Of a stretch of 64,000 nt of DNA, positions 36,652-55,165 are shown in pieces. How positions within the stretch are numbered: the stretch's first letter is position 1; every line of letters starts with the position of its first letter. Made by a program: the position numbers and the translations under genes. The stretch comes from Escherichia coli (lineage in GTDB: Bacteria > Pseudomonadota > Gammaproteobacteria > Enterobacterales > Enterobacteriaceae), in the NCBI RefSeq assembly GCF_024298765.1, contig NZ_CP101210.1; one strand, written 5' to 3'. Below the pieces are notes generated by a model. The model was not told where the DNA came from. It worked only from the letters and a program-made list of their open reading frames with translations, and made no database searches.

Positions 36652-37047
36652 TTATTGCATTCTGGCCAGGCCGCGCTCTGTCATTTCAGCTGCCACACCG
36701 GCAGAGACACGGAACGCCGTTCCCGGCAGCACAAATGCCACAGCCTCATCCCGCGTGGCGTGAAGTGCATCAGTATGCAGCGTCACCAGTGCCACAACCG
36801 TGACCAGATCAGCCGTATCAGTCACGGTATCCGGCTGCGCTGATACCACCTCATTTTCATGTCCGGTCAGCGCATTTTCCGGGCTGACAGATGTGTCCTG
36901 ACCGGCAGCGTCATCCGTGTCATCAAGCTCCTCTTCCAGCTCTGCCACACGGAGCGCCAGTTCTTCTTTCGTCCCCGTCAGGCTGACATCACGGTTCAGT
37001 TGTTCACCCAGCGAGCGGAGACGGGCAATCAGTTCATCTTTCGTCAT
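36652..37047 (-). CDS. FI: DNA packaging protein FI
   Basis: 132 aa from MTKDELIARLRSLGEQLN... Confidence 0.9.
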   Translation of the reverse strand: MTKDELIARLRSLGEQLNRDVSLTGTKEELALRVAELEEELDDTDDAAGQDTSVSPENALTGHENEVVSAQPDTVTDTADLVTVVALVTLHTDALHATRDEAVAFVLPGTAFRVSAGVAAEMTERGLARMQ

Positions 37048-37088
37048 GGACTCCTCCACAGAGAAACAATGGCCCCGAAGGGCCATGA

Positions 37089-37877
37089 TTACGCCAGTTG
37101 TACGGACACGAACTCATCAGGGTCAGCCAGCAGCATCAGCGGTGCTGACTGAATCATGGTGAACTCACGCGCCGGATCGCCGGTGGTCACCCAGTTTTTC
37201 GGGTAACGGGCAGAGGCGTTAATGCCTTCGCGCTGTGCGTCCGCATCCTGAATGCAGCCATAGGTGCGCAGACCGCGTGCATGAGTGTTACCCAGCACCA
37301 TCGTGTTGTCCGGCAGGAAGTTCTTTTTGACGCCGTTTTCCACGTACTGTCCGGAATACACGACGATGGCCACATCGCCATACATCCCCTTATAGGACAC
37401 CGCTTTACCCAGGTCTTTCACCGCTGTCTCCAGCTCGGAATGAGAGCCGCGACGGGTATCCAGCTTCTCCTTGACGGCGTTGAAGGAACGGAACAGCGCC
37501 CAGCCTTTCGGATCAAACACGATGATATTCACCACGCCGCTGGCGTTCAGCGCGTAGGCTTCGATATCGTCGGTCGGGTCATACGTGGACTTGTCACGCT
37601 TGCTCCACTCCGTGCCGCCGGACTGCGTGATGTTGTTCGCCGCACTGCGGCCCATATCCACCTCAACCGGATCGAAGGCTTCACCGGTCATGGTGTATTT
37701 GCCCTTGAGCACGGCAGAAACTGCCTGCATCTCTTCGACCTGAGCAATGGCCAGCTCTTCGTCACGCATGTTCTGCAGGATGATGCGACGGCGGCGGTAA
37801 GCCGGGTCCGCCAGATTCTGCGGATCTTCATCCGGCAGGCGACGCAGGGTCATCTGCGGATTCACTTCATGCTTGGG
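37089..37877 (-). pseudogene. E: major capsid protein E, C-terminal portion (gene split by island insertion)
   Basis: Encodes ...PKHEVNPQMTLRRLPDEDPQ... to the E C-terminus; upstream in-frame sequence is island DNA with an immediate stop. Confidence 0.9.
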
Positions 37878-37879
37878 TT
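37870..37879. repeat. island left junction direct repeat (att core) tgcttgggtt
   Basis: Identical 10-mer recurs at 48754-48763 at the other E junction. Confidence 0.8.
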
Positions 37880-38013
37880 ACATGAGTCAAATATGAAAGG
37901 ATGTGAATGATTTGATTACGTTTTAGCTATAGAATTGAAATGGAAAATCCTTGAATGCAATACAACGTGCAATACATGGATGAAAACCATCACTCATTTA
38001 ACAAGAGGAATCT

Positions 38014-38919
38014 ATGCGCTCACCCAACAGAATGCATGAACGCTCAACATTTTATAAGTATATGTCGTTGAATACCGCGAAGATTGTTCTTGATTCATGC
38101 AGCCTTAGATGGAGTTCTCCGGTCCTATTTAATGACCCTTTTGATGTTCCAAGAGAAGTTATGCCTGGTATTAACGAAATTAATATTGGCAAAGCTTTAG
38201 CCCGCAAGTTAATAGCGGAGTTGATTACCCCCAGAGAAGACATACAAAATTTAAACCCTAGAATTAGAACAATGCTAAGTGATTTCCAAAAGTCATTTCC
38301 TTTAGGCATACCCGCAGGATTAATTGAAAGATTTCAAGAAATGGTAAACATTCCACCAGTTGGGATTGGCGCTCCTGCGGCAATACAAGAAATGAAAGAT
38401 ATCTGGCGAGGAATGCTTAATAACAGAAGGATTTTGTGTTTATCTGAGAGCCCTATAATCACTCCTATGTGGAATCACTATGCCGATAAATATAAAGGTA
38501 TAGTTATCGAATTTGATTGTGTAGACTTTCTGGATAGCGCTTGGTTAATAGCCAAACCTATGAAATACACAGATGAAATGCCTCTAACTCACACTGCTGA
38601 AGGGATGGCCGAGTTGCTTTTCATGCCAGACAATAAGTCAATTGAATATATCAATAATGAGATAATATTCATAAAAACAGAAGAATGGGCATATGAAAGA
38701 GAGTGGAGAATTTCAACCTACGCTAGGCCAAATAGCACTGGTCAATATAGCGACTTAAAATTTCACCCTTTTGAGTTAAAATCTGTAATACTTGGTCCTC
38801 TTTTTGATGCCAGCGAGTTCGATGAAGTCGCATCACTAGTTAAAATGTATCCAAGAGCGAAATTATTTAAAAGTTCATTTGGGAACGACAGAAAAATATC
38901 CATAGTACCACTACCTTAA
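38014..38919 (+). CDS. hypothetical protein, DUF2971-like (low-GC cargo gene)
   Basis: 301-aa ORF with GAGGA RBS; motifs FYKY...LRWSSPVLFNDPFD, MWNHYADKYKGIVIEFD, EREWRI recalled as DUF2971-like; family assignment from memory only. Confidence 0.6.
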   Translation: MRSPNRMHERSTFYKYMSLNTAKIVLDSCSLRWSSPVLFNDPFDVPREVMPGINEINIGKALARKLIAELITPREDIQNLNPRIRTMLSDFQKSFPLGIPAGLIERFQEMVNIPPVGIGAPAAIQEMKDIWRGMLNNRRILCLSESPIITPMWNHYADKYKGIVIEFDCVDFLDSAWLIAKPMKYTDEMPLTHTAEGMAELLFMPDNKSIEYINNEIIFIKTEEWAYEREWRISTYARPNSTGQYSDLKFHPFELKSVILGPLFDASEFDEVASLVKMYPRAKLFKSSFGNDRKISIVPLP

Positions 38920-38949
38920 AAGGTCAAATGCTTTTGACAAATAAAATCT

Positions 38950-38976
38950 ATCGCCAGTTTTACTGGCGACTTTTAA
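38950..38976 (+). terminator. hairpin terminator between convergent DUF2971-like gene and Nu1-like gene
   Basis: cgccagttttactggcg stem-loop followed by cTTTTaa. Confidence 0.35.
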
Positions 38977-39025
38977 GCAACAAAGAACCACCTAAGCACT
39001 CTTCCTACCTATGGTTTCATTTGTT

Positions 39026-39577
39026 TTAACTTCGCTGATTATCCTTGATATACCTTTCAGCCATATCTGGAATGTTATCTGAGATCTGGTAAGCTCGAAT
39101 AAATGCTTTACTGACCTCCATCTTAATGAAGTCCTGATACCGTTTTTCCATGCCAGGAAACTGTCGACAGATCGCAAGTGGAAGACTATCAATGATTGCT
39201 CCAACTTCCCCAGTTAATTTCGACAAGGCATAAGTCGCAAATGCAGTGTCAATTACCTCACCTGTTTCGCTGGCATTCTTCAGTTCCTGTGCGTCGGCCT
39301 GCGCACGCGTAAGTCGATGGCGTTCGTACTCAATAGTCCCTGGCTGGAGATCTGTCTCGCTGGCCTGCCGCAGTTCTTCAACTTCCCGGCGCAGCTTTTC
39401 GTTCTCAATTTCAGCATCCCTTTCGGCATACCATTTTATGACGGCGGCAGAGTCATAAAGCACCTCATTACCCTTGCCACCGCCTCGCAGAACGGGCATT
39501 CCCTGTTCCTGCCAGTTCTGAATGGTACGGATACTCGCACCGAAAATGTCAGCCAGCTGCTTTTTGTTGACTTCCAT
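39026..39577 (-). CDS. terminase small subunit homolog (Nu1-like chimera)
   Basis: 183 aa; residues 1-~103 essentially identical to the prophage Nu1 at 54397-54942 (winged-HTH cosB-binding domain), C-terminal ~80 aa diverged. Confidence 0.88.
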   Translation of the reverse strand: MEVNKKQLADIFGASIRTIQNWQEQGMPVLRGGGKGNEVLYDSAAVIKWYAERDAEIENEKLRREVEELRQASETDLQPGTIEYERHRLTRAQADAQELKNASETGEVIDTAFATYALSKLTGEVGAIIDSLPLAICRQFPGMEKRYQDFIKMEVSKAFIRAYQISDNIPDMAERYIKDNQRS

Positions 39578-39739
39578 TGTTCATTCCACGGACAAAAACA
39601 GAGAAAGGAAACGACAGAGGCCAAAAAGCTCGCTTTCAGCACCTGTCGTTTCCTTTCTTTTCAGGGGGTATTTTAAATAAAAACATTAAGTTACGACGAA
39701 GAAGAACGGAAACGCCTTAAACCGGAAAATTTTCATAAA

Positions 39740-39800
39740 TAGCGAAAATCCGCGCGCCTGACGCCCCGTAGCCTGTCAGATCGCCGGAAAGGACCCGCCA
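39740..39800. other. cos-like site of the island (variant cosN)
   Basis: Aligns to prophage cos at 55100-55165; the 12-mer equivalent to the cohesive end (39755-39766, cgcctgacgccc) differs at 5/12 positions from aggtcgccgccc. Confidence 0.7.
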
Positions 39801-39822
39801 GCCAGAGCGGGCCCTAATTTCA

Positions 39823-40206
39823 TCAACCAATCAGCTTATAGCGACCATCCCGTGCATTGCGGCGTACACGCTCAATCTTGAGGCATAGCGCCGCATCTGG
39901 CTTTTTTGGGACAGGTACGCGGCAATATTCAGAAGCGCGAGGAATATTATTTATCCAGTCGATCACTTCACTTAAATACCAGGCCTTACGCCCTTCCGTA
40001 ACCTGCACACGCTCCGGGAACTCTCCACTAGCCTCAAGGTTTAGCAGTGTACGCCGACTCAGGGTTGTAATTTCCATCACCTGATTCATATCAACAAGGC
40101 GCTCGCTTAAACACATTTTGTCAGCGATAGCTTTTAATTCCTCTACAGCTGGATTCGGGTACATCATTTCGGCAATTGGCTTAAGGTCATTGTAATCATT
40201 CTGCAT
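39823..40206 (-). CDS. AlpA/MerR-like HTH protein
   Basis: 127-aa ORF; central motif ITTLSRRTLLNLEASGEFPERVQVTEGRKAWYLSEVIDWIN resembles AlpA-family HTH. Confidence 0.6.
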   Translation of the reverse strand: MQNDYNDLKPIAEMMYPNPAVEELKAIADKMCLSERLVDMNQVMEITTLSRRTLLNLEASGEFPERVQVTEGRKAWYLSEVIDWINNIPRASEYCRVPVPKKPDAALCLKIERVRRNARDGRYKLIG

Positions 40207-40217
40207 TGTATCCCCCT

Positions 40218-40559
40218 TTACACACGAGCCAGCGGCTGAACAGAAATACCTGAGCCAACAAACGCTGCAATCTTTACTGACAGTTCTTTTACAGACTCAG
40301 GCCAGTTCAGAGCATCAACATTTAAGACACCTGTCTTATAGACCTGAGCCTGTGTTTTTTTCGCGGTGTCGATTTGTACAGCGGAAACATAAACCGCTTT
40401 ACCTACGCTCGAACCATCCCATACCACCAGTGCACCTGTTGCATCTTCCTGCATCAGTGGCGTAAATGCAGGAATTACCCCTTTATTAGCTGAAAATATC
40501 CCCAGCGTAGTCACCAGTGCTTCAGTGCCAGCCATGAGTTCAGTGTAATGAGTAGCCAT
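40218..40559 (-). CDS. head decoration protein, gpD-like (divergent)
   Basis: 113 aa; shared pattern with lambda D (TPLM...WDG...YK.G...WPE...AF.G..IS) at ~30% identity. Confidence 0.7.
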   Translation of the reverse strand: MATHYTELMAGTEALVTTLGIFSANKGVIPAFTPLMQEDATGALVVWDGSSVGKAVYVSAVQIDTAKKTQAQVYKTGVLNVDALNWPESVKELSVKIAAFVGSGISVQPLARV

Positions 40560-40568
40560 TGCTCCCCC

Positions 40569-41615
40569 TTAGCCAATGCGAACGGTAACAAAACGATTGA
40601 TGCGGGCCGGTATTGGCTGTGGTGCTGAATGTGTCTGCACATATTCAATAGCCGGATCACCAGGCACAATATAGTTTTTCGGTGCAAGTTCGGCTTTAGT
40701 CAGCCCCATTCGGATTAGCTCCGGATCCTGAATACCGCCATAGGCGACAATCCCCTGAAGAGCCGTATTGCCAAGCACCATCAAATCAGGATCAAGGAAA
40801 TGTTTTTCAGTTCCGTCCTCGTCGGTATAACGCCCGCTGTATACAACAATCGCAACATCGCCCATATACCCTTTAAAACTCACCGAATCACCAAGGTCTT
40901 TAAGGGCCGTTTCCAGTTCGGAATTAGAGCCACGACGGGTATCCAGAGCCTCTTTTATCGCTCTGAATGAACGGTATTTCTTCCATACATTACCGCCCAT
41001 AATGATGATATTAGTGACGCCCTCACTAAATTCTGCGTAGCTCTCAATATCATCATTTGGATCAAAAGTTTCTTTATCCTTACCTGACCACTCAGCACCG
41101 CCAGACTGAGTGATGATATTTTGTGGTTTAATATTCCAGTCCAGCTCATAACGTTCAATACCATCGCCCTCAATGATATTTTTCCCCGTTGTGATTGCCT
41201 GAACGGCAAGCCATTCAATACGTGCACGAATAGATTTAGCCTGATTTACAATCGCCTGTTTAACTTTAATATTACGCGCTCCAAAAGCATTGTATTGCTC
41301 AGGTGATACACCAGCAGGGCGCACAGCTAACTTATTTGGATCAATGCTGCTTTTCGGCTTCATATAGCCTGGACGAATTGTTTTTGATTCGTACCCTTCG
41401 TCACGTGAAACTTTACTACCCACCATAGGAGAACAAAACGCTGCAATTGGGATATTTGGATCGTCGATTGTATCAAGAATAATATCGCGCGATTCAAACA
41501 TTACCGAGCGAGTAAAAAACAAACTGGTAAACAACGCATTTAGTTGTTTTTGTACATCTACAGCATTAACCACCTGTACAAGCTGGGTAGGCGAATATAA
41601 ATCAACCATACGCAT
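40569..41615 (-). CDS. major capsid protein, gpE-like (divergent)
   Basis: 348 aa from MRMVDLYSPTQL (RBS AAAGAGG); ~50% identity to prophage E over ITQSGG...DTRRGS.SELETA...GDVAIVVYSG...MVLGNT. Confidence 0.85.
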   Translation of the reverse strand: MRMVDLYSPTQLVQVVNAVDVQKQLNALFTSLFFTRSVMFESRDIILDTIDDPNIPIAAFCSPMVGSKVSRDEGYESKTIRPGYMKPKSSIDPNKLAVRPAGVSPEQYNAFGARNIKVKQAIVNQAKSIRARIEWLAVQAITTGKNIIEGDGIERYELDWNIKPQNIITQSGGAEWSGKDKETFDPNDDIESYAEFSEGVTNIIIMGGNVWKKYRSFRAIKEALDTRRGSNSELETALKDLGDSVSFKGYMGDVAIVVYSGRYTDEDGTEKHFLDPDLMVLGNTALQGIVAYGGIQDPELIRMGLTKAELAPKNYIVPGDPAIEYVQTHSAPQPIPARINRFVTVRIG

Positions 41616-41826
41616 CCTCTTTGCATTCATTAAAAATAATTGTGGATATATGCTATCACCGATATTTGTCATGCGAATACATGCAACCGAGTGCAATGTT
41701 GTATAAAGTTTTGGGATAACAACTTCAGCGCGGATAATTAGTGTTAATATCTTAACTCCCTTTGGTCGGGATTTATGTAGCATGCCGGAAAATTTATTTT
41801 TTTCCGGCCTTTTTTATTGGCAATAT

Positions 41827-42276
41827 TTAAAACGGAATATCATCTCCCCATTGCTCATTATCTCCCACTGGTGGATGGCTTCCTTGCTGATCTGCCTGTT
41901 GTTTTGCTCTGTTCAGTGCGTCAGTAGCCTGACCCTGTTGACCTTTTTTGCCGCCCGGTCGCACCGTTCGCGCACTGATTACGCTGTCTGCGATAACCTG
42001 CCAGCCCTGCCGCGTTTCACCGTTCTGTCCAGTCCACTGGCTCACCTGCATATTACCCGCCACGCTCAGGAGTTCGCCTTTGTGATGCTTTGCCAGCGCG
42101 TCGGCTTGTCTGCCAAACGCCAGGACAGATAACCACATCGTCGCCGTTCCGTCATCTGCCTGGCTGCATGGCAAAGATACCGCCATCCGTGCCAGTGTCA
42201 TGGGTGTTCCCTTGCTGGTATGTTTTACCTGTGGGTCGTCCACCAGCCGCCCGTAAGCTGCTATTTGCGCCGTCAT
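41827..42276 (-). CDS. ssb: single-stranded DNA-binding protein
   Basis: 149-aa ORF with OB-fold pattern, Gly/Gln-rich linker and acidic C-terminal tail ...GDDIPF. Confidence 0.8.
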   Translation of the reverse strand: MTAQIAAYGRLVDDPQVKHTSKGTPMTLARMAVSLPCSQADDGTATMWLSVLAFGRQADALAKHHKGELLSVAGNMQVSQWTGQNGETRQGWQVIADSVISARTVRPGGKKGQQGQATDALNRAKQQADQQGSHPPVGDNEQWGDDIPF

Positions 42277-42287
42277 GCTGCCTGCTC

Positions 42288-42530
42288 TCAGGACTTAATA
42301 TTGATGGTTGTCACTTCCTCCGCTTCGGCAATCTCCCGTTCGGTCAGCGTGGCAAAGTTTGCAGCCGCCGTTGTCATGAATGCGCTTATCAGTTCGGGAT
42401 GTGCTTTCGCGTATCCTTCCCCGGCGTTGCGGTCTATTGCCTTAATCGCCACCCTTAGCCAGTGTTCAGCCATATCAAGGGCGCGGTAATGTGGCTTTAT
42501 ATGTTTGTTCAGTTTTCCTGATGTGTGCAT
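42288..42530 (-). CDS. hypothetical protein
   Basis: 80-aa ORF in operon between origin and ssb. Confidence 0.5.
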   Translation of the reverse strand: MHTSGKLNKHIKPHYRALDMAEHWLRVAIKAIDRNAGEGYAKAHPELISAFMTTAAANFATLTEREIAEAEEVTTINIKS

Positions 42531-42559
42531 TTTTATTTTTACCCCCTCGTTTAAAAAGT

Positions 42560-42810
42560 TTTTTGTGCACCACCACCTTGTCTACCTTGTCTACCTGATT
42601 AGTTATCAGGCCAGTAATGGCGCGGGTTTCAGGGAGGTAGACAGCCCCAAATAGCTGTCTACCTCATCTCTACCCGTCTCCTTACCTGTCTACAAAAATG
42701 GGTAGATAAGGTAGATAACAGGTAGACAGTGAAAAATAGTTATCTACCTGCATTAATGCATTGAAATAAAAGTATTTTATTTCAGTCAGGTAGACAAGGT
42801 AGATAACCAT
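42560..42810. repeat. iteron cluster, putative island origin of replication
   Basis: >12 copies of GGTAGAYA / TRTCTACC in both orientations immediately downstream of the primase gene. Confidence 0.8.
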
Positions 42811-42819
42811 TGCCATTTT

Positions 42820-44571
42820 TTATAAAAACGCATCGCAATCATCAGTAGTCGTTGCGTTGGTCTGCGTGACTCCCTTAACTTTTCGCGTAATATATTCATA
42901 TCCGTAAACTTTCGCCGCTGACCTCATAGCCTTTCCGAACTCATTCACGCTCAAACATTTCCCCTTTCCTGTATATGCCATGAAGGCCATATAGACACGG
43001 TAAAGGCTGTTTCTGGTCGTGTACTTCACGGTGTCACCACCACCGCCCATCATTAGCCCACGAGCTTCCTCCAGAAACTCCAGCGCCGCGCAAAGCTCAA
43101 CAACCGGATCCGTTTGCTGCTTTATTGCCAGAGCTTCATCACCGTCACGCTGTTCCAGTAATAAAGCCCGTGCCTTTTCAGGGTCAGCAAAATTAGCCAG
43201 CAAGCGGCGGATAATTACGGGGATTTCTGCCGCTATCTTTTCCGGTAATTCCTTGTCTTTTTCGTCCTCCCTTACAATGTTGTCGAACCGGAAAATCACC
43301 CGACGGCGTGACACACCTCCGGCCCGTTCGGTAAAGATCATCGGGTCGTTATTGGTTGCCAGTACCACCGCCCTTATTATCGTCGTGAATCGCTTCTCAT
43401 ATTTCGGGTTAATTTCAACGGGATCGCCTCCCGTGATTTTCTTGATGCCCGTGCCTTCCCCCGTATATTTCGGCTGATCGGCAAGGACGATAAGACGACT
43501 CCCGACAACCTGCGCACGCCCTCCTGCATCATCGAGTGATGTCATCTCTGCGCTTACGGTGTTCTGTTTGCCAGCAAGCAGGGTGGCAATATGGGTAAAT
43601 GTACTCTTACCGCTTCCCCCGTCTCCGGTGGCCTCAATGAACATCTGCCAGTCGTACCGGTTCGCCATAATCATGTACAGCGCGGCACATATACGCATCA
43701 TCTTGCGCGGGTCTTTTCCGGCTGCGTGCTCAAGCCATTTATGAAAGTTTGGCGCGTTATCGCGGATGTTCTCCCCTGGTGCTGGTGGCGTGTACTCAAT
43801 GCCGTTGTGCGTGGTGATCCAGTTCTCCGGCGTGTGCGGGGAAAATTCCCCCGTTTTCAGGTCAAGCGCACCATTGGCGAACGGCAGCAAATCGCCGGAC
43901 GGCTCGCCCATTGGTTCGGCAATAACTTTTAACGCTTCAACGGCGTTATTGATCACGCGTTTGCTGAAAGTGGCCCTGTGCTCTGAATAGATCGCCACCA
44001 TTTCGCGGCTCAGCTCCATTGTGCTGATCGGACACCATACCCCGCCGCGCCATACGTGAACGATTTCACTTTCCGGATGCACACAAACGCCATCAAAGCG
44101 CTCGGCAAGCAGCTGCGCGCGCTCACTGTCTGCCATCTGTGAAAGTTGCGCCTTTTGCTTCGTCGGAAGATTAAGCACCAGGCTTTCCCCACGCTCGCAT
44201 TCCTCTTTGAGTCGCGGCAACTGGTCGGATAAATCCACTGGGCTGATGTCAGTAATCCCCGCGTATTCGTGTACGGTCTTCACTCCAGCCACAGCCAGTA
44301 ACGTAACAATCTGCGTCATGCTGTGCTCTGTGATATGTCCTGCGCGGTAAACACGCACACACTGACGATCTTCATCAATGATCCGGTAATCGGTGATGTT
44401 TTTCAGTTGCTCATCAGCCAACACGACAGGCGGCACATCGTCGGCGGCAATATGTTTACCCGCCCATTCCTGCCACTCTTTCGCATGGCTCCACGCATCA
44501 CTACCTGCAAAGATGATTATCTCTGTCAGTCTGTCGCGTGGCTGTTTTTTTAAGTTCGGTGCCAGTTTCAT
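42820..44571 (-). CDS. primase/helicase-like replication protein (P-loop NTPase, D5/P4-alpha-like)
   Basis: 583-aa ORF with Walker A GDGGSGKST and primase C-terminal-like region. Confidence 0.8.
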   Translation of the reverse strand: MKLAPNLKKQPRDRLTEIIIFAGSDAWSHAKEWQEWAGKHIAADDVPPVVLADEQLKNITDYRIIDEDRQCVRVYRAGHITEHSMTQIVTLLAVAGVKTVHEYAGITDISPVDLSDQLPRLKEECERGESLVLNLPTKQKAQLSQMADSERAQLLAERFDGVCVHPESEIVHVWRGGVWCPISTMELSREMVAIYSEHRATFSKRVINNAVEALKVIAEPMGEPSGDLLPFANGALDLKTGEFSPHTPENWITTHNGIEYTPPAPGENIRDNAPNFHKWLEHAAGKDPRKMMRICAALYMIMANRYDWQMFIEATGDGGSGKSTFTHIATLLAGKQNTVSAEMTSLDDAGGRAQVVGSRLIVLADQPKYTGEGTGIKKITGGDPVEINPKYEKRFTTIIRAVVLATNNDPMIFTERAGGVSRRRVIFRFDNIVREDEKDKELPEKIAAEIPVIIRRLLANFADPEKARALLLEQRDGDEALAIKQQTDPVVELCAALEFLEEARGLMMGGGGDTVKYTTRNSLYRVYMAFMAYTGKGKCLSVNEFGKAMRSAAKVYGYEYITRKVKGVTQTNATTTDDCDAFL

Positions 44572-44867
44572 TTTTTGCCCCTGAATGCGTTAATCATGCT
44601 TTTCATTTTCTGGATGTTTCCCCGCGCTTTTTCCCTGCTGATGGGCTTACTGCGGGGTGCGGCATATACCAGGGAAAAATCACGCCGGAACTGATAAACA
44701 GGCATCACGCAGTCATAGCTATACCCCTCACGACGGTAAGTGATGCGCCGTTCTGCCACGCCTTTAATCGTTACCGTGCCGCCGTATTTATCGCGGTAAA
44801 TATCGCCGTTCATAAATTCAGGCCGAGCGGGGCCGCTGGCAATAAAGCCAGAATTTTTCATTTCCAT
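44568..44867 (-). CDS. hypothetical protein
   Basis: 99-aa ORF overlapping primase start by 4 nt. Confidence 0.55.
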   Translation of the reverse strand: MEMKNSGFIASGPARPEFMNGDIYRDKYGGTVTIKGVAERRITYRREGYSYDCVMPVYQFRRDFSLVYAAPRSKPISREKARGNIQKMKSMINAFRGKK

Positions 44868-44884
44868 ATTATTTATTCCTCGAC

Positions 44885-45106
44885 TTAACTCGACTTATTT
44901 GATAGCTGGGCACTATTTATTGCGTCATTGAGTTTTTCTGCTGCTTCATCAATAAGTGACAACAGGCCATAAGCAATATTTGCATCTTCATTGTCATTTA
45001 TGCAATCAAGCCACATATTTAATATTGCTTTTGCTGAATTATTTAAAGTTAATGAACTTTCTGCACATGCTAACAATTTAAAAAAGACTTCCCGTTCTGT
45101 ATTCAT
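44885..45106 (-). CDS. hypothetical protein
   Basis: 73-aa low-GC ORF in the island leftward operon. Confidence 0.5.
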   Translation of the reverse strand: MNTEREVFFKLLACAESSLTLNNSAKAILNMWLDCINDNEDANIAYGLLSLIDEAAEKLNDAINSAQLSNKSS

Positions 45107-45298
45107 TTAATCCCCCACCAGCTTACTTTCTTCCTCAATCAAAAAACTAGCGACACTTCCCGAAAGACGCGCCAGTAGGCTCGCCAGTGCGGATATATCA
45201 GCATCTGTAATTTTGTTCGGGTATACCTCAAGAAGGCGGCAAATAATTTCTGTCTGGTGCGCACGTTCAGCGGCTTCGTGTAATGTGATTTCCTGCAT
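45107..45298 (-). CDS. hypothetical protein
   Basis: 63-aa ORF, start/stop abutting neighbours. Confidence 0.5.
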   Translation of the reverse strand: MQEITLHEAAERAHQTEIICRLLEVYPNKITDADISALASLLARLSGSVASFLIEEESKLVGD

Positions 45299-45483
45299 TA
45301 ATGCACCTCTTTTAATTCATACACTGCTGAAATAATGACTTGTGATAAGCCATATTCTGATGATTCGCTTCTCACCGCAGCAATAGCCGTCTGAACATTA
45401 ACAGCCTTCACATTCTGAGCGATACCAATTGTGTGGCCTATTGGGTTAACAGCTCGGGCAAATACACGGAAGGTTTTAAGCAT
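45298..45483 (-). CDS. hypothetical protein
   Basis: 61-aa ORF in operon. Confidence 0.5.
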   Translation of the reverse strand: MLKTFRVFARAVNPIGHTIGIAQNVKAVNVQTAIAAVRSESSEYGLSQVIISAVYELKEVH

Positions 45484-45673
45484 GACTCACTCCCTGGCGG
45501 ATTTTTGCAGCGAATACAGCAACACAACCGGACGGGCAACGGCTACGCGCTTCGCGTTCCGTCCAGGCGGTTACGTGGATGATTTGAGATTCTCCGGCAC
45601 TCAGTGCCAGAAAACGCCACACAAAGGCCGTTTGTGTGTGTACAAGGTGTGGTATATGATTTACAGCAACCAT
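45476..45673 (-). CDS. hypothetical small protein (first gene of leftward operon)
   Basis: 65 codons from internal ATG preceded by AGGAG at -7; rest of the 243-aa ORF-track call rejected. Confidence 0.35.
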   Translation of the reverse strand: MVAVNHIPHLVHTQTAFVWRFLALSAGESQIIHVTAWTEREARSRCPSGCVAVFAAKIRQGVSHA

Positions 45674-45764
45674 AACGGCTCCTAGTTTACGTTGTTGGTT
45701 AGACGCCCCGTATGTGTTCCCAGCACTGCGGGGCGTTGCTCTTTGTATTTCAACAATCCTTTCG

Positions 45765-45797
45765 GTGTGTTTCATGTTATGAGCGCATGAAACACAC
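45765..45797. promoter_or_regulatory. operator-like inverted repeat in divergent promoter region
   Basis: tgtgtttcatg-N9-catgaaacaca perfect 11-bp arms; third half-site tgaaacacac at 45832-45841. Confidence 0.6.
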
Positions 45798-45863
45798 GTC
45801 AAGGCTTTTTGTATTTCTTTTTTTGTGTATACTGAAACACACCGATGATTAGGAGTTTCAGAA

Positions 45864-46169
45864 ATGGCAACGGCTAACAAAAACGCAAAATCACAACTGA
45901 CAACTGTCAGAGTCCCACTAGATGTTATGCAAGGGATGGAATCCGTTAAGCTGGACGGTGAAAGCAATGCCGGATTTATCGTAACCGCCATGCGCGGTGA
46001 AATCGCCCGCCGCCAGGCAGAAGGAAGCGGAGAAAATCCCCTCGTGTCTTCACTGGATGCCTTAGCTAAGGTCGAACAAATCGGCATCAAGGCAGCGGAG
46101 GAAATCGGGCAACTCGTAGCCGTCGCTCGTGAAGAACTCCAGCGGCGTAAAGCCAAAGAATCTGAATAA
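45864..46169 (+). CDS. small DNA-binding protein, ribbon-helix-helix-like, putative island regulator
   Basis: 101-aa ORF with AGGAG RBS, divergent from the replication/packaging operon; N-terminus LTTVRVPLDVMQGMESV resembles RHH. Confidence 0.55.
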   Translation: MATANKNAKSQLTTVRVPLDVMQGMESVKLDGESNAGFIVTAMRGEIARRQAEGSGENPLVSSLDALAKVEQIGIKAAEEIGQLVAVAREELQRRKAKESE

Positions 46170-46519
46170 TTAGTATCAGCGCCGTGATGTGAGTAACTAC
46201 GGCGCATTGCTATGTAAATACTGGCAATAAACAGAAAAGGTAGTTCTACTCCGAATAATTTTATCTGACACTACTCCTGAACTAACATGCGCTTATCTTA
46301 CAGGATATAAATATAAATCCATAAAATCACGATTAAATAAAGTCGCTCCAAACATAAACCACACCCAACGCTTAACAAGATAGCAACAAACAGGTAAATA
46401 ACTTGCAGAAATATTTATCGCAAGGATTATCATTATTAATGACAAATCACTTTACCAAGTCATTCCCCTCTCTTATCATAAAGAGAAAGTAATAAATAAG
46501 TTAAGGGAGTTAGAATGCT

Positions 46520-47056
46520 ATGAATCTAAAAAAAATAGCCACAAACACAAAAAACAAGATAACAGAAACATTTAATAAACTTATATTAGAGGCATCTAAA
46601 ACCCCCACACAAGATGAAATTAAAATACTTGAGAGAAGGAGTAAGAAGTTTAATTACTCCTTTTTCTCATACGCAGTCACAGGAGCTATAATAGTTTTTT
46701 GCTCTCAACCATTAATTAAATACGCAAACCCAATACTTATTTTATTGAGTGGTCTGTTACTGTCTATCATCATTATCATTCTCAGAATGATTTATATTTC
46801 ACAAGCGAATGCATCATGGACAACCAAAAAACGCTCACATGTACTAGTTCATTTTCTTTCTGCATGTTTCATAGCATCAACATTGACGTTGCTATATCAG
46901 GCTTACGATAATAACATCACACACAAATTGTACTGTAAAAATATACAACAACTTATTGAAAAAAGGATAAAAACAGAAAAAAACATCAGCATATTCAGTG
47001 GGATGCAATGCACCCCGGTATATGATTACTCTTTATTTGGATTTAATCTCTTATAA
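46520..47056 (+). CDS. hypothetical membrane protein (very low GC cargo)
   Basis: 178-aa ORF with ~3 predicted TM helices; RBS GGGAG; AT-rich. Confidence 0.6.
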   Translation: MNLKKIATNTKNKITETFNKLILEASKTPTQDEIKILERRSKKFNYSFFSYAVTGAIIVFCSQPLIKYANPILILLSGLLLSIIIIILRMIYISQANASWTTKKRSHVLVHFLSACFIASTLTLLYQAYDNNITHKLYCKNIQQLIEKRIKTEKNISIFSGMQCTPVYDYSLFGFNLL

Positions 47057-47125
47057 AGAATGTTATTACTGATTTGAGTACAAATTCTCAAATCAGTAAT
47101 TCATAATATTTTATTCTGAGATAAT

Positions 47126-47362
47126 TTAAACTACCCACTCACCTCGAATCCATGCCTGCACTTCTGAAAGACGATATGCAACAGCAGTGGAACCAATCTT
47201 GATCCGCTTAGGAAATTTTCCTTCCTTCTCCAGCTTCCAGCGTGTGCTGTTCGCAAGAGTGGTTAGCTCCCGACATTCTTTCTCACGGATCATTCGGTCA
47301 ATGTTAGGAATGTACTCCAGACCCTTTTTATCAACAATTGCCATTTTTTTCATGTTAACCAA
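47126..47362 (-). CDS. alpA: AlpA-family transcriptional regulator/excisionase
   Basis: 78-aa ORF; motif ELTTLANSTRWKLEKEGKFPKRIKIGSTAVAYRLSEVQAWI; immediately downstream of int. Confidence 0.8.
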   Translation of the reverse strand: MVNMKKMAIVDKKGLEYIPNIDRMIREKECRELTTLANSTRWKLEKEGKFPKRIKIGSTAVAYRLSEVQAWIRGEWVV

Positions 47363-48590
47363 CCTTTTGTTTGAGGATTGTCACTTTTGAATCAGCACCT
47401 GCGATGCTATTGAGATATGTAGTCCAGAGTTCCAGAGCATCCAGTTTTTTAGCCATAAACTTACTCCGGTTGTAAACACCTGCCACGCCAGGTAGCGCAT
47501 GGCCTAACAGTTGTTCTACTACATAAAATTCAACACCGAGATCACTTAGATGAGTAGATAGCGTTCTTCTAAGGTCGTGTAGTGACCATTGTTTTTCATG
47601 GCCCAAACGTTTACCGATTTTCCCCCCAATCTTGCTTACGCTTTCTCTAATTCGCAGACTTCCCAGCACATAACCAGTATGTTTTGTCTCTTCGTGAACA
47701 TCCGTTACCCACTGTCGTAGAATTTCAGGTACTGGTCTGACGATTTCAACACCAGTTTTTGAGTGATCTTTTGGTACAGTCCAAACCCAACTTTCGAGAT
47801 CCCATTCGCTCCATTCTGATAATCGGGCTTCACTCATTCGACATCCAAATACTGTACAAAGCACAAACATTTTTCGCGTGTATTCAGACATTAGTTTTAA
47901 ATCAGGCTCGACAAAAATTGCCTTCCAGAGCTGGCCGAGTTCGGCTTCATCCAGAACCCGATCCCGCTTACCTGCAATCTGCCCCACATCACTCATGCGC
48001 AAATCCTTTAAAGCATCACACGTCGCGTACTGGCGTACCCGACAAAAACGAAGAGCTAATTTAGTGTCAGAAAAAACATACGCCGCCATAACTGGTGCAT
48101 TACGTTTAATTCGGTCAAAACAGTCCAGCCATTCATATAGGTGAGTGTCATTTACGGGCAAATGACCGATATAGGGAAAGATATGCTTTCGAAATCTGCC
48201 AAGCGTTACAGCATGAGTTTTACGACGCACCTTACAGTAATTTTCATACCAGTAATTTAGTGCATCCTCCACTGTAACTGGCTTTAAGCGTTCTTCAGCC
48301 TGAATCTTAATCTGGATACGCGGATCACGTTTGTCAGCCAACCAACCACGGCACTCGTCGCGCTTTTCCCTTGCCTGTTTGAGTGACATATCAGGATATT
48401 TACCCAACGTTAGCCAGACCGGAGCAGCCCGGCCACCTGCTAACCTGTAGAAGAAAACAAAGCTCACAGCCCCTTTAGTACTCACACGAATAGAAAGCCC
48501 CTTTCCATCAGCAATGGTGATCTGCTTTTCTCTGGGTTTCCCCAGATATCCTTTAAGCGCTTTGTCGCTCAGTTTGTTCTCGCCAGCCAT
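47355..48590 (-). CDS. int: tyrosine site-specific integrase (P4-type)
   Basis: 411 aa from MAGENKLSDKALKGY; catalytic R...HDLRRT...LLGH...Y motifs; adjacent to right island junction. Confidence 0.9.
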   Translation of the reverse strand: MAGENKLSDKALKGYLGKPREKQITIADGKGLSIRVSTKGAVSFVFFYRLAGGRAAPVWLTLGKYPDMSLKQAREKRDECRGWLADKRDPRIQIKIQAEERLKPVTVEDALNYWYENYCKVRRKTHAVTLGRFRKHIFPYIGHLPVNDTHLYEWLDCFDRIKRNAPVMAAYVFSDTKLALRFCRVRQYATCDALKDLRMSDVGQIAGKRDRVLDEAELGQLWKAIFVEPDLKLMSEYTRKMFVLCTVFGCRMSEARLSEWSEWDLESWVWTVPKDHSKTGVEIVRPVPEILRQWVTDVHEETKHTGYVLGSLRIRESVSKIGGKIGKRLGHEKQWSLHDLRRTLSTHLSDLGVEFYVVEQLLGHALPGVAGVYNRSKFMAKKLDALELWTTYLNSIAGADSKVTILKQKVG

Positions 48591-48752
48591 TTTTAGCCCC
48601 AAAAAGCAATACAAGCTGCAATACAGAGATGATTGCAACACACAGATAACGAGGAAAATTCAGTGAAAGCACCAGATAAACTTATTCTTTATTATCAAAA
48701 GATTAAGTGTAAAAACCAGCAACTACACGAAAGCCTCAGAAAGCCATGCTAA

Positions 48753-48998
48753 GTGCTTGGGTTTGACATATCCCGGCGTAAATTCAGAGGTGGAGCCGCC
48801 ACGGGAACGGATAACCTCACCGGAAACAATCGGCGAAACGTACAGCGCCATGTTTACCAGTCCCGGAATTTGTGAGAGATAGACTTTCTCCGTAGTGAAG
48901 GGATAGCTCTCACGGAAAAAGAGACGCAGAAACAGCGGATCAAACTTAAATTTCTGCTCATTTGCCGCCAGCAGCTGGGCGGTTGTGTACATCGACAT
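48753..48998 (-). pseudogene. E: major capsid protein E, N-terminal portion (82 codons) truncated by island
   Basis: MSMYTTAQLLAANEQKFKFDPLFLRL...GYVKPKH then island-derived LAWLSEAFV and stop. Confidence 0.9.
48754..48763. repeat. island right junction direct repeat (att core) tgcttgggtt
   Basis: Identical to 37870-37879. Confidence 0.8.
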
Positions 48999-49053
48999 AA
49001 AAAAATCCCGTAAAAAAAGCCGCACAGGCGGCCTTTAGTGATGAAGGGTAAAG

Positions 49054-49386
49054 TTAAACGATGCTGATTGCCGTTCCGGCAAACGCGGTCCGTTTTTTCG
49101 TCTCGTCGCTGGCAGCCTCCGGCCAGAGCACATCCTCATAACGGAACGTGCCGGACTTGTAGAACGTCAGCGTGGTGCTGGTCTGGTCAGCATCAACCGC
49201 CAGAATGCCAACGGCAGCACCGTCGGTGGTGCCATCCCACGCAACCAGCTTACGGGTGGAGGTATCCAGCATCAGCGGGGTCATTGCAGGCGCTTTCGCA
49301 CTCAATCCGCCGGGCGCGGTTGCCGTATGTGCCGGGTCACTGTTGCCCAGCGGCTGGTAATGGGTAAAGGTTTCTTTGCTCGTCAT
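49054..49386 (-). CDS. D: head decoration protein D
   Basis: 110 aa from [12 protein letters not shown], matches lambda gpD. Confidence 0.95.
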
Positions 49387-49395
49387 AAACATCCC

Positions 49396-50695
49396 TTACA
49401 CTGGTGTGTTCAGCAAATCGTTAACGGCATCAGATGCCGGGTTACCTGCAGCCAGCGGTGCCGGTGCCCCCTGCATCAGACGATCCAGCGCAGTGTCACT
49501 GCGCGCCTGTGCACTCTGTGGTGCAGCTGCCAGAATGCGGCGGGCCGTTTCCACGGTCATACCGGGGGTTTCGGCCAGCACGCGTGCCTGTTCTTCGCGT
49601 CCGTGAGCCTCCTCACAGTTGAGGATCCCCATAATGCGACTGTTTTCTGCCGCAACCGCTGCGGTGATCTGCGCGTTCACGTCCGGCTGCGCCGCGCTGG
49701 CGTTCTCGCCCTCCGTCGCTTGCACCACGCCAGTAACGTCAGCCTGCGAAGCAGTGGCTGAAACAGTTGTTGATTGAGTCTCTTTGGTCATTCGCCCTCC
49801 TGAGAGACGGGATTTACGTGCATCCAGTGCATCACGCATGACGGTGATCGCATCGGTACTGTTAACAAGTTCATCAGCCAGTCCGGCATCAATGGCCTCC
49901 TGACCGCTGTACACTGCAGCCTCGGTATCCAGCACAGCCTGCACGGACAGGCCGGTATATGCCGACACCTTCTGTGCAAACATCTGGCGGGTTGCGTCCA
50001 TCCGGGACTGCAGTGTCTCCCGGACGTCATCCGGAAGATGGCTGTAGGGATTGCCATCCACCTTATGGCTGCCGCTGTAAATCAGCGTGATTTCCACACC
50101 CTGTTTCTCCAGGGCAGCACCGTAATTACTGTGAGCCATCATGACGCCGATGGAGCCTGTCCGGGCGGTCTGCGTGACCAGACGCCGGGAGGCGGCACTG
50201 GCAAGCAGCTGACCTGCACTGCAGTTCATGTCGTTGGCCAGCGCCCATACCGGTTTTATGTCACGCACACGGGCGATGATGTCAGCGCAGTCAAATGCCC
50301 CCGCCACCATTCCGCCTGGCGTGTCCATATCGAGCAGAATGCCGTCCACCATCGGGTCGCTGGCAGCCTGTTGCAGACGGGCGATAATGCCGTTGTAACC
50401 GGTCATCCCCGAGTACGGCTGCAGCGCCCGCGTCCGGCTGACCAGCGTGCCGGACACCGGCAGCACGGCGATGCCGTTCATGACCTGATAACTGCGGGCC
50501 TGTCGTGGTCCGTCATCATCACCGGATAATGCCAGCGTCGCGAGTGCCTCCTGGGCAGTCAGGCTGTCGCCGGACACCGCATCCGTCAGGCGGCTGATCC
50601 CAAGCTGGCCTGCAAGCGCACAAAAGAAAACCCGCGCATAGGCGGGTTCAAGCATCAGCGGCTCATTAAAGGCCATGCTGGCAATATGCGGGAGA

Positions 50696-54422: not shown

Positions 54423-54942
54423 TCAGCAACCCCGGTATCAGTTCATCCAGCGCGGCTGCTTTGTTCATAGCTTTGATGATATCCCGTTTCAGGAAATCAA
54501 CATGTCGGTTTTCCAGTTCCGGAAAACGCCGCTGCACCGACAGGGGGATCCCGTCGAGAATACTGGCAATTTCACCTGCGATCCGCGACAGCACGAAAGT
54601 ACAGAATGCGGTTTCCACCACTTCAGCTGAGTCTCTGGCATTCTTCAGTTCCTGTGCGTCGGCCTGCGCACGCGTAAGTCGATGGCGTTCGTACTCAATA
54701 GTCCCTGGCTGCAGATCTGTCTCGCTGGCCTGCCGCAGTTCTTCAACTTCCCGGCGCAGCTTTTCGTTCTCAATTTCAGCATCCCTTTCGGCATACCATT
54801 TTATAACGGCGGCAGAGTCATAAAGCACCTCATTACCCTTGCCACCGCCTCGCAGAACGGGCATTCCCTGTTCCTGCCAGTTCTGAATGGTACGGATACT
54901 CGCACCGAAAATGTCAGCCAGCTGCTTTTTGTTGACTTCCAT
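54397..54942 (-). CDS. Nu1: terminase small subunit Nu1
   Basis: 181-aa ORF matching lambda Nu1 end to end. Confidence 0.95.
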
Positions 54943-55099
54943 TGTTCATTCCACGGCCAAAAACAGAGAAAGGAAACGACAAAGGCCCAAAAGTTCGTTT
55001 TCAGCACCTGTCGTTTCCTTTCTTTTCAGGGGTTATTTTAAATAAAAACATTAAGTTACGACGAAGAAGAACGGAAACACCTTAAACCGGAAAATTTTC

Positions 55100-55165
55100 A
55101 TAAATAGCAAAAACCCGCGAGGTCGCCGCCCCGTAACCTGTCGGATCGCCGGAAAGGACCCGTAA
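55100..55165. other. prophage cos site (cosN cohesive-end 12-mer at 55120-55131)
   Basis: aggtcgccgccc = reverse complement of lambda cohesive end GGGCGGCGACCT; flanking sequence matches lambda left/right ends. Confidence 0.9.

What the first reader, a model, noticed from the sequence alone, without database searches (positions are those of the whole stretch)
41781..41820. Strong hairpin between the island ssb and capsid genes, oriented as a plus-strand terminator
gccggaaaa-N7-ttttccggc is followed by CTTTTTTATT on the plus strand (41781-41820), whereas all flanking island genes are on the minus strand. It may stop antisense or read-in transcription, or be an RNA element separating the replication and capsid modules.
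Basis: seen in the sequence. Interest (0 to 1): 0.25.

Follow-up and report, generated by a model that had tools for sequence, protein, structure and literature searches.

The report
Plus-strand terminator of a probable satellite small RNA
The hairpin is a real, conserved transcription stop signal that faces against the genes of a phage-parasitic island, and it most likely ends a roughly 60-base non-coding RNA that nobody has described; expression has not been shown.

Summary
GCCGGAAAA-N7-TTTTCCGGC lies at 41784-41808 (+) and is followed by CTTTTTTATT. It is one of only five strict terminator-like sites in the 64 kb window.

It sits in the 217-nt gap between ssb and the true capsid start (41609, not 41783). 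The island is an EcCICFT073-type phage-inducible chromosomal island (PICI). Here it is embedded in the capsid gene of a lambdoid prophage, a published configuration.

In 42 E. coli variants and 19 variants from other genera, a GC hairpin occupies this position. Its U tract is always richer on the strand antisense to the island genes.

An invariant extended -10 motif (TGnTAnnnT) lies on that same strand, 34 nt upstream of the hairpin in E. coli (41742-41750). In the other genera it lies 87-100 nt upstream of the terminator's end. There, a 5' stem-loop with a conserved CCUCC loop and the terminator show covariation and G·U pairs that only work on the antisense strand.

Best reading: the hairpin is the intrinsic terminator of an unannotated small RNA of about 60 nt. 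It matches no Rfam family and appeared in no paper searched. Its target is unknown and expression is untested. The terminator itself is ordinary; the RNA gene would be a new member of a known kind.

The parts
41784..41808 (+). Terminator hairpin: 9-bp stem (5 GC and 4 AU pairs), 7-nt loop
   Evidence: The GC core GCCGG/CCGGC is unchanged in 41 of 42 unique E. coli-type variants.
41809..41818 (+). U tract CTTTTTTATT (7 U in the 9 nt after the stem). It appears as an A tract on the gene-sense strand.
   Evidence: It has 6-8 U in 9 nt in every E. coli-type variant.
41742..41750 (+). Candidate extended -10 promoter TGtTAATAT of the antisense transcript
   Evidence: The pattern TGnTAnnnT is kept in all 19 lineages listed from other genera. 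T1, G2, T4 and A5 are invariant in the 17-sequence alignment A4. It is also kept in the E. coli types as TGTTAATAT or TGTTAATGT.
41757..41771 (+). Short 5' stem-loop UCCC-UUUGGUC-GGGA carrying the C-rich motif CUCCC
   Evidence: Two independent C-to-U changes keep the pairing as U·G on this strand only. One G-to-U change breaks a pair.
41757..41817 (+). Inferred non-coding RNA of about 60 nt. Both ends are predicted, not mapped.
   Evidence: Inferred from the promoter and terminator positions. No ORF is present.
41711..41738 (+). Second promoter-like site, TTGGGA-16-GATAAT. Its -35 hexamer is not conserved in the type-2 islands.
41650..41658 (-). Extended -10 (TGaTAGCAT) of the capsid operon's own promoter, with a predicted start near 41643
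   Evidence: The equivalent motif is present in every lineage.
41681..41707 (-). Conserved TTTATACA box and TTGCA(C/T) direct repeats at about 10-11 bp spacing (two in E. coli, three elsewhere). A likely activator site for the capsid promoter.
41610..41826 (.). The ssb-capsid intergenic region that holds all of the above
   Evidence: It is found in 365 of 5426 complete E. coli genomes and in no record of the phage collection.

Best explanation
The hairpin and its U tract form a Rho-independent terminator that works on the + strand, against the direction of the island's genes.

RNA polymerase would start at a conserved extended -10 promoter (TGtTAATAT, 41742-41750; start near 41757). It would transcribe about 60 nt, pause on the U tract, and be released when the GCCGGAAAA/UUUUCCGGC stem forms.

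The product is a small non-coding RNA with three parts: a C-rich 5' end (CUCCC, partly paired), an A/U-rich linker, and the terminator hairpin with a U tail.

What is shown:
- the sequence features;
- their conservation;
- the strand bias;
- RNA-level covariation in the relatives from other genera.

What is inferred:
- that the promoter fires;
- the exact RNA ends;
- that the E. coli form is the counterpart of the RNA seen in other genera.

What is guessed is the RNA's job. Either its invariant C-rich motif pairs with G-rich ribosome-binding sites. Or it pairs in cis with early transcripts that read from ssb into the capsid module, so that early and late expression are uncoupled.
For: 1. The terminator anatomy is met only on the + strand and is far above chance.

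2. All 61 unique variants have the richer U tail on the antisense strand.

3. In relatives from Kluyvera, Kosakonia, Superficieibacter and uncultured contigs, the capsid proteins are 85-98% identical while the upstream DNA has diverged. A GC hairpin of different sequence still sits in the same place.

4. TGnTAnnnT is kept on the antisense strand in all 19 of these lineages. It lies at a fixed distance, 87-100 nt from the motif to the terminator's end. T1, G2, T4 and A5 are invariant in the 17-sequence alignment, while the weakly constrained -10 positions vary. A stem-loop begins 5-7 nt after the motif.

5. A covariance model built on that strand finds every non-E. coli lineage at 22-103 bits. 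The opposite strand gives only terminator-sized hits of 18-25 bits.

6. On the resulting alignment 95.6% of cells pair, and 4 pairs show compensatory changes. No shuffle out of 500 reaches the observed pairing or covariation score.

7. The same structure has 25 G·U and 12 mismatched cells on the antisense strand, against 9 G·U and 28 mismatches on the sense strand.

8. Minimum free energy is lower on the antisense strand in 12 of 15 lineages, by up to 6.7 kcal/mol.

9. No + strand ORF ends at the hairpin.

10. The stem-loop's loop sequence CCUCC is nearly invariant while its stem covaries.
Against: - There are no expression data of any kind.
- The covariance model from the other genera does not detect the E. 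coli-type sequence at E <= 1. The E. coli RNA is therefore a parallel in architecture, not a demonstrated homolog.
- In the E. coli type the 5' stem is only 4 bp, and one variant group breaks a pair.
- The two strands fold about equally well in the E. coli type.
- One type-2 stem change (A to G) gives G·U on the sense strand and a mismatch on the + strand.
- The -10 hexamers match the consensus at only 3-5 of 6 positions.
- The tool's two-hexamer scan does not call this promoter, and misses the Kluyvera terminator because of a bulge.
- The structure-fitted alignment leans towards the model, and the lineages are related rather than independent.
- No target stands out in the window.
Confidence: 0.55

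Rival explanations
1. The hairpin is a + strand terminator acting as a plain insulator. It stops diffuse antisense transcription that arises in the AT-rich capsid module, or read-in from the convergent accessory gene, before it runs into ssb and the primase gene. No dedicated promoter and no functional RNA product are involved.
For: The terminator anatomy and strand bias are the same as in the main explanation. The capsid module is AT-rich and contains several weak promoter-like matches on +. The + strand gene at 38014-38919 points into the module.
Against: This does not explain the invariant TGnTAnnnT at a fixed distance, the conserved CCUCC loop, or the covarying 5' stem in the relatives. 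Read-in from 38014-38919 meets a bidirectional terminator at 38950-38970 first.
Confidence: 0.25
2. The hairpin works on the gene-sense (minus) strand. It would be a 3' stabiliser of the ssb/early transcript, or a weak U-tract-less terminator or pause that separates early from late expression.
For: It lies 18 nt after the ssb stop. The capsid operon has its own conserved promoter downstream of it. In many non-E. coli lineages the sense side carries 3-5 U, so there the element looks bidirectional.
Against: In the E. coli type the sense tail is AUGCUACAU in all 42 variants. The conserved A tract has no role on this strand. The hairpin is kept next to the capsid module when the upstream gene differs. 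The G·U pattern favours the other strand.
Confidence: 0.12
3. It is a DNA-level element (a protein-binding palindrome, or part of the cos site or the origin), a REP-like repeat, or a chance palindrome.
For: The stem ends GCCGGA...TCCGGCC loosely recall the ends of REP elements (recalled from memory).
Against: - Shuffles exclude chance.
- Lineages keep the pairing but not the sequence, with wobble pairs, which fits RNA rather than a protein site.
- The island's cos-like region is at 39240-39797.
- The expected origin position is next to the primase gene (PMC6092414).
- The interior is A/T only, unlike REP.
Confidence: 0.05

Closest known systems
Canonical Rho-independent (intrinsic) terminators of E. 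coli, especially those of Hfq-binding small RNAs
   Same: A GC-closed stem of 9 bp, a 7-nt loop, -12.7 to -13.5 kcal/mol, and 6-7 consecutive U directly after the stem. PMC5558911 (listed) notes that terminators of Hfq-binding sRNA genes carry seven or more T residues.
   Different: No annotated gene lies on that strand. Binding to Hfq or ProQ is untested. The window's variant has 6 consecutive U and some variants have 7.
Phage lambda oop RNA, and similar short antisense RNAs of temperate phages such as P22 sar (from my own knowledge, not checked here)
   Same: A short RNA with its own promoter and a strong intrinsic terminator. It is transcribed against a long one-directional operon of a lambdoid-associated element, at a module boundary next to the replication genes.
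   Different: oop overlaps the 3' end of cII and acts on it as an antisense. This RNA would end 9 nt short of the ssb stop codon and overlaps no coding sequence. There is no sequence similarity and no Rfam match.
Bidirectional terminators between convergent genes, such as the one at 38950-38970 in this window
   Same: In many relatives from other genera the hairpin has A5-A8 on one side and U3-U5 on the other. There it could stop both the upstream sense gene and the antisense RNA.
   Different: The E. coli type has no sense-side U tract at all, and both flanking genes point the same way.
P4 CI / P1 c4 immunity RNAs of satellites and phages
   Same: A small regulatory RNA encoded by a phage satellite. 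Relatives of P4 CI and seqA are reported in the Bro zone of these islands (PMC10111431).
   Different: The location differs (the Bro zone rather than the replication/capsid boundary). Those RNAs are processed from a longer transcript rather than made as a promoter-to-terminator unit. No C4-family hit was found in 37000-49500.

Membership tests
Rho-independent terminator (+ strand) | GC-rich stem of at least 5 bp with a 3-8 nt loop and a stable fold | tested here: met
   9 bp with 5 GC pairs, loop of 7 nt, -13.5 kcal/mol
Rho-independent terminator (+ strand) | U-rich tract directly 3' of the stem | tested here: met
   CUUUUUUAU, 7 U in 9 nt. All 42 E. coli variants have 6-8 U.
Rho-independent terminator (+ strand) | Lies at the 3' end of a transcription unit on that strand | tested here: inconclusive
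   There is no annotated + gene. A conserved extended -10 motif lies 34 nt upstream, but no transcript data exist.
Rho-independent terminator (+ strand) | Releases RNA polymerase in vivo or in vitro | not testable with these tools
   Needs a terminator-probe assay or 3'-end sequencing
Rho-independent terminator (minus, gene-sense strand) | U-rich tract directly 3' of the stem | tested here: not met
   AUGCUACAU, 3 U in 9 nt, identical in all 42 E. coli variants
Small non-coding RNA gene | Own promoter on the same strand | tested here: inconclusive
   TGnTAnnnT is kept in every lineage at a fixed distance. Its activity is untested.
Small non-coding RNA gene | No conserved ORF | tested here: met
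   No ORF lies between 41742 and 41818 on +. The putative leader peptide on the sense strand is not conserved.
Small non-coding RNA gene | Conserved secondary structure with covariation on the transcribed strand | tested here: inconclusive
   Met in the relatives from other genera: 95.6% of cells paired, 4 compensatory pairs, 25 against 9 G·U cells. The E. coli-type stems vary too little to judge.
Small non-coding RNA gene | Detectable transcript | not testable with these tools
   No RNA data were available, and no paper mentions it.
Any Rfam family | Covariance-model match near the gathering score | tested here: not met
   The best hits reach 15-22 bits against thresholds of 49-208 bits.
Lambda oop-type cis-antisense RNA | Overlaps the coding sequence of the gene it controls | tested here: not met
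   The U tract ends at 41818 and the ssb stop codon is at 41827-41829.
Bidirectional terminator | U tracts available on both strands between opposed transcription units | tested here: not met
   The E. coli type has a tail on one side only, and the flanking genes are co-directional. The feature is partly met in other genera.
EcCICFT073-type Gram-negative PICI (context) | int, alpA-type regulator, primase, then a late zone with capsid and decoration homologs, all in one direction | tested here: met
   ORF map and RefSeq annotation of identical DNA; descriptions in PMC6092414
Helper-embedded PICI (context) | [quoted passage not shown] | tested here: met
   Capsid-gene fragments flank the island in the window and in strain T-HYM1. 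The type is described in PMC10111431.

The most novel reading that the evidence does not exclude
Capsid-carrying Gram-negative PICIs encode a dedicated small RNA at the boundary between their replication and capsid modules. Its invariant C-rich (anti-Shine-Dalgarno-like) motif would control translation or stability of late-gene messages, either the satellite's own or the helper phage's. That would add an RNA layer to satellite-helper conflict.
Probability: 0.25. Interest if true: 0.65.

Novelty: new member of a known kind. Interest (0 to 1): 0.4.

Why it matters
Regulation of Gram-negative PICIs is described so far in terms of proteins (AlpA, Rpp), and their genes are described as one-directional. 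This would be a conserved promoter-to-terminator unit running the other way, placed exactly where early (replication) genes meet late (capsid) genes. It would be the first candidate regulatory RNA at this position in these satellites.

It is cheap to test, because the island occurs in about 7% of complete E. coli genomes. If the RNA is not made, the result is still useful. The hairpin is then simply a well-conserved antisense-facing terminator, and the capsid operon has its own promoter and activator repeats downstream of it.

Tried and rejected
- **Rfam.** Scans of the island, the 250-nt region and the Kluyvera counterpart found nothing near threshold.

- **Literature.** I searched for the island type, for the locus tags c1498-c1500, for sRNA and terminator in PICIs, and for the sequence itself. 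No paper mentions this element.

- **Trans targets in the window.**
  - Duplex energies against 122 translation-initiation regions were no better than for shuffled queries. The best was -34.7 kcal/mol, equal to the best shuffle, and the shuffle mean was -30.6.
  - A 12-bp match upstream of the helper Nu3-like start at 49791 is at chance level by my estimate.
  - The same holds for a 10-nt match to the ribosome-binding site of the + strand ORF at 46520.
  - Pairing of the C-rich motif with the Shine-Dalgarno sequences of the island's decoration and HTH genes is generic.

- **Module junctions.** I first read L032 and L047 as junctions just upstream of the A tract. They are IS200 and IS1 insertions. 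The evidence that the hairpin stays with the capsid module rests instead on the Kluyvera-type loci, which have four different upstream contexts.

- **IHF site.** The sense motif TA.CA could be part of a WATCAR-N4-TTR site. By my reading of the sequences, the TTR half is present in only about half of the lineages. The invariant base matching -7T is also not explained by this reading.

- **Leader peptide.** A sense-strand peptide behind the GGAGG loop is not conserved.

- **cos site.** The helper's cosN is at 55120-55131, and the island's cos-like copy is at 39240-39797.

- **Model search.** The covariance model from the other genera did not find the E. coli form.

- **EcCICFT073 itself.** It has a different sequence at this position.

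Full report
**1. The observation**

The sequence at 41784-41808 (+) is GCCGGAAAA TTTATTT TTTTCCGGC, followed by CTTTTTTATT.

- The tool scan ranks it first among terminator-like sites in 36-48 kb.
- It folds at -13.5 kcal/mol on the + strand and -13.2 kcal/mol on the - strand.
- A stricter scan of my own required a perfect stem of at least 8 bp, at least 4 GC, a loop of 3-8 nt and at least 6 T in the next 9 nt. It finds five sites in the whole 64 kb on both strands, against 0.2 records per dinucleotide shuffle.
- On the minus strand the stem is followed by AUGCUACAU, which is not a terminator tail.

**2. The context**

The surrounding genes all run on the minus strand:

| Gene | Coordinates |
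|---|---|
| integrase | 47355-48641 |
| primase | 42820-44571 |
| ssb | 41827-42276 |
| lambda gpE-like capsid gene | 40569-41609 (annotated start; see below) |
| gpD-like decoration gene | 40218-40559 |
| HTH regulator | 39823-40206 |
| Nu1-like small terminase | 39026-39577 |

- RefSeq annotation of an identical stretch in strain T-HYM1 starts the capsid gene at the position matching 41609 (MVDLY), not at the longest-ORF start 41783.
- The hairpin therefore lies in a 217-nt intergenic region, 41610-41826.
- The island matches the EcCICFT073-type Gram-negative PICIs, which carry capsid and decoration homologs (PMC6092414).
- In this window the island splits the major capsid gene of a lambdoid prophage. 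The fragments are at 48723-49025 and 37089-37865. This is the published 'helper-embedded PICI' configuration (PMC10111431).
- The intergenic region occurs in 365 of 5426 complete E. coli genomes and in no record of the phage collection.

**3. Conservation in E. coli**

I collected 82 loci, which give 42 unique upstream sequences.

- The GC core is unchanged in 41 of the 42 variants.
- The length of the loop's A run drifts between variants.
- The + strand tail has 6-8 U in 9 nt in every variant, while the sense tail is always AUGCUACAU.
- Two island types differ by about 25% and by indels in the end of ssb. From the hairpin to the capsid start they are still 86-100% identical.
- Some genomes carry an IS200 or IS1 insertion between ssb and the hairpin.

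**4. Other genera**

I found capsid relatives in Kluyvera, Kosakonia, Superficieibacter and uncultured viral and metagenomic contigs. Their capsid proteins are 85-98% identical to each other and to the window's. They give 19 unique upstream regions that have diverged strongly.

- Each has a GC hairpin of a different sequence at the same place, for example GCGGG...CCCGC, GGCGGGC...GCCCGCC or GACGGG...CCCGTC.
- In all 19 the U tail is richer on the strand antisense to the capsid gene: a mean of 6.9 U in 9 nt against 3.8.
- Many also have 3-5 U on the sense side, so there the element looks bidirectional. The E. coli type has lost the sense tail.
- In the Kluyvera-type group the same hairpin and A tract sit behind four different upstream sequences.

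**5. A transcription unit on the antisense strand**

- The motif TGnTAnnnT lies on the antisense strand in all 19 lineages. It sits 87-100 nt from the motif to the terminator's end. T1, G2, T4 and A5 are invariant in the 17-sequence alignment A4.
- The invariant positions are the ones that matter most in an extended -10 promoter (-15T, -14G, -12T, -11A, -7T), going by established knowledge of sigma-70 promoters. The middle positions vary.
- A stem-loop of 6-9 bp begins 5-7 nt after the motif. Its loop is nearly invariant (CCUCC). About 30 nt of linker follow, then the terminator.
- The E. coli type has the same motif as TGTTAATAT or TGTTAATGT at 41742-41750. It is followed by CUCCC within a 4-bp stem (41757-41771), a 12-nt A/U-rich linker and the hairpin.

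**6. Which strand is the RNA?**

- A covariance model built from nine antisense sequences finds every non-E. coli lineage on that strand at 22-103 bits. The opposite strand gives only terminator-sized hits.
- On the resulting 16-sequence alignment, 95.6% of cells pair and four pairs carry compensatory changes. No shuffle out of 500 reaches the observed pairing or covariation score. Sliding the partner columns drops pairing to 35-63%.
- The same pairs, counted on each strand, give:

| Strand | Watson-Crick cells | G·U cells | Mismatched cells |
|---|---|---|---|
| antisense | 235 | 25 | 12 |
| sense | 235 | 9 | 28 |

- Minimum free energy is lower on the antisense strand in 12 of 15 lineages, by up to 6.7 kcal/mol.
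- Caveats: the alignment was fitted to the model, and the lineages are related rather than independent.
- In the E. coli type the evidence is thin. The two strands fold about equally well. Two C-to-U changes keep pairs as U·G on + only. One G-to-U change breaks a pair. One A-to-G change in the terminator stem favours the sense strand.
- The model does not detect the E. coli form.

**7. What else lies in the region**

- On the sense strand every lineage has an extended -10 (GTGATAGCAT or variants) about 50 nt before the capsid ATG.
- Upstream of it lie TTGCA(C/T) direct repeats at 10-11 bp spacing and a TTTATACA box.
- The capsid operon therefore has its own promoter, probably activator-dependent, downstream of the hairpin. 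This explains why the hairpin can mark a boundary without being a sense terminator.

**8. Interpretation**

- *Most likely (0.55).* The hairpin is the intrinsic terminator of an RNA of about 60 nt, made from the conserved extended -10 promoter on the + strand.
- *Rival (0.25).* It is a + strand insulator with no dedicated product. This does not explain the promoter motif, the conserved loop or the covarying stem.
- *Rival (0.12).* It has a sense-strand role. This is contradicted by the missing U tract, the conserved A tract and the G·U pattern.
- *Rival (0.05).* It is a DNA-level site, or chance. The evidence in section 6 and argues against both.
- The RNA's function is unknown. The invariant C-rich motif suggests pairing with G-rich ribosome-binding sites. 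Pairing in cis with ssb-to-capsid read-through transcripts is the other simple option. Neither could be tested, and my target searches in the window were at chance level.

**9. Comparison and novelty**

- The hairpin itself is a textbook intrinsic terminator.
- The inferred RNA resembles lambda oop in layout (from my own knowledge) but overlaps no gene.
- It matches no Rfam family and appears in none of the papers searched.
- I rate it a new member of a known kind, of moderate interest, pending a simple expression test.

Noticed in passing
window 37089-37865 and 48723-49025, with the island between them (about 37.9-48.7 kb): The island is inserted in, and co-oriented with, the major capsid gene of a lambdoid prophage. 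The prophage's head genes lie at 49-55 kb and its tail genes at 20-37 kb. This is the published helper-embedded PICI configuration ('11capE' type, PMC10111431). Strain T-HYM1 has the same arrangement.
   Followed up: partly
window 39240-39797 against 54605-55162: The island's small-terminase 5' half and about 220 nt upstream are 95% identical to the helper's Nu1 and cos region. The 12-nt cosN core differs, however: GGGCGTCAGGCG in the island against GGGCGGCGACCT in the helper.
   Followed up: partly
window 41650-41707 (minus strand): The capsid operon's control region is conserved. It has a TTTATACA box, TTGCA(C/T) direct repeats about 10-11 bp apart (two in E. coli, three in other genera) and an extended -10 (GTGATAGCAT). 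It is probably the binding site of an island activator; which protein binds is unknown.
   Followed up: partly
window 38950-38970: A hairpin TCGCCAGT-TTT-ACTGGCGA has T-rich tails on both strands. It lies between the convergent small-terminase gene and the + strand DUF2971 gene (38014-38919), and is a likely bidirectional terminator.
   Followed up: partly
L032 5560-5830, L189 3214-3940, L047 5020-5790: In some E. coli genomes an IS200C element or an IS1 element sits between ssb and the hairpin. In L032, which carries the IS200 insertion, the hairpin has a stem mismatch (CCTGC).
   Followed up: partly
L270 230-300 (E. coli CFT073, EcCICFT073): The model island has a different sequence upstream of its capsid module. 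A canonical sense terminator (GCCGGA-GCAA-TCCGGC followed by six T) comes first. A second hairpin follows, flanked by A7 and T4, so it again has the richer tail on the antisense strand.
   Followed up: no
window 20446-20470 (+): Another strong + strand terminator-like site, TCGCCATGAA-GCTCT-TTCATGGCGA followed by TTTTTTATT. It lies next to minus-strand prophage tail genes.
   Followed up: no
window 49791 region (minus strand): A 12-bp complementarity, including one G·U, links the candidate RNA (CGGGAUUUAUGU) to a sequence 24-35 nt upstream of an internal start in the helper's protease/scaffold gene. By my estimate it is at chance level.
   Followed up: partly
window 40840-40974 against 37357-37491: The island's capsid gene and the helper's interrupted capsid gene share only a short stretch of DNA similarity (74% over 136 nt). 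The island's copy is therefore a diverged homolog, not a recent duplicate.
   Followed up: no
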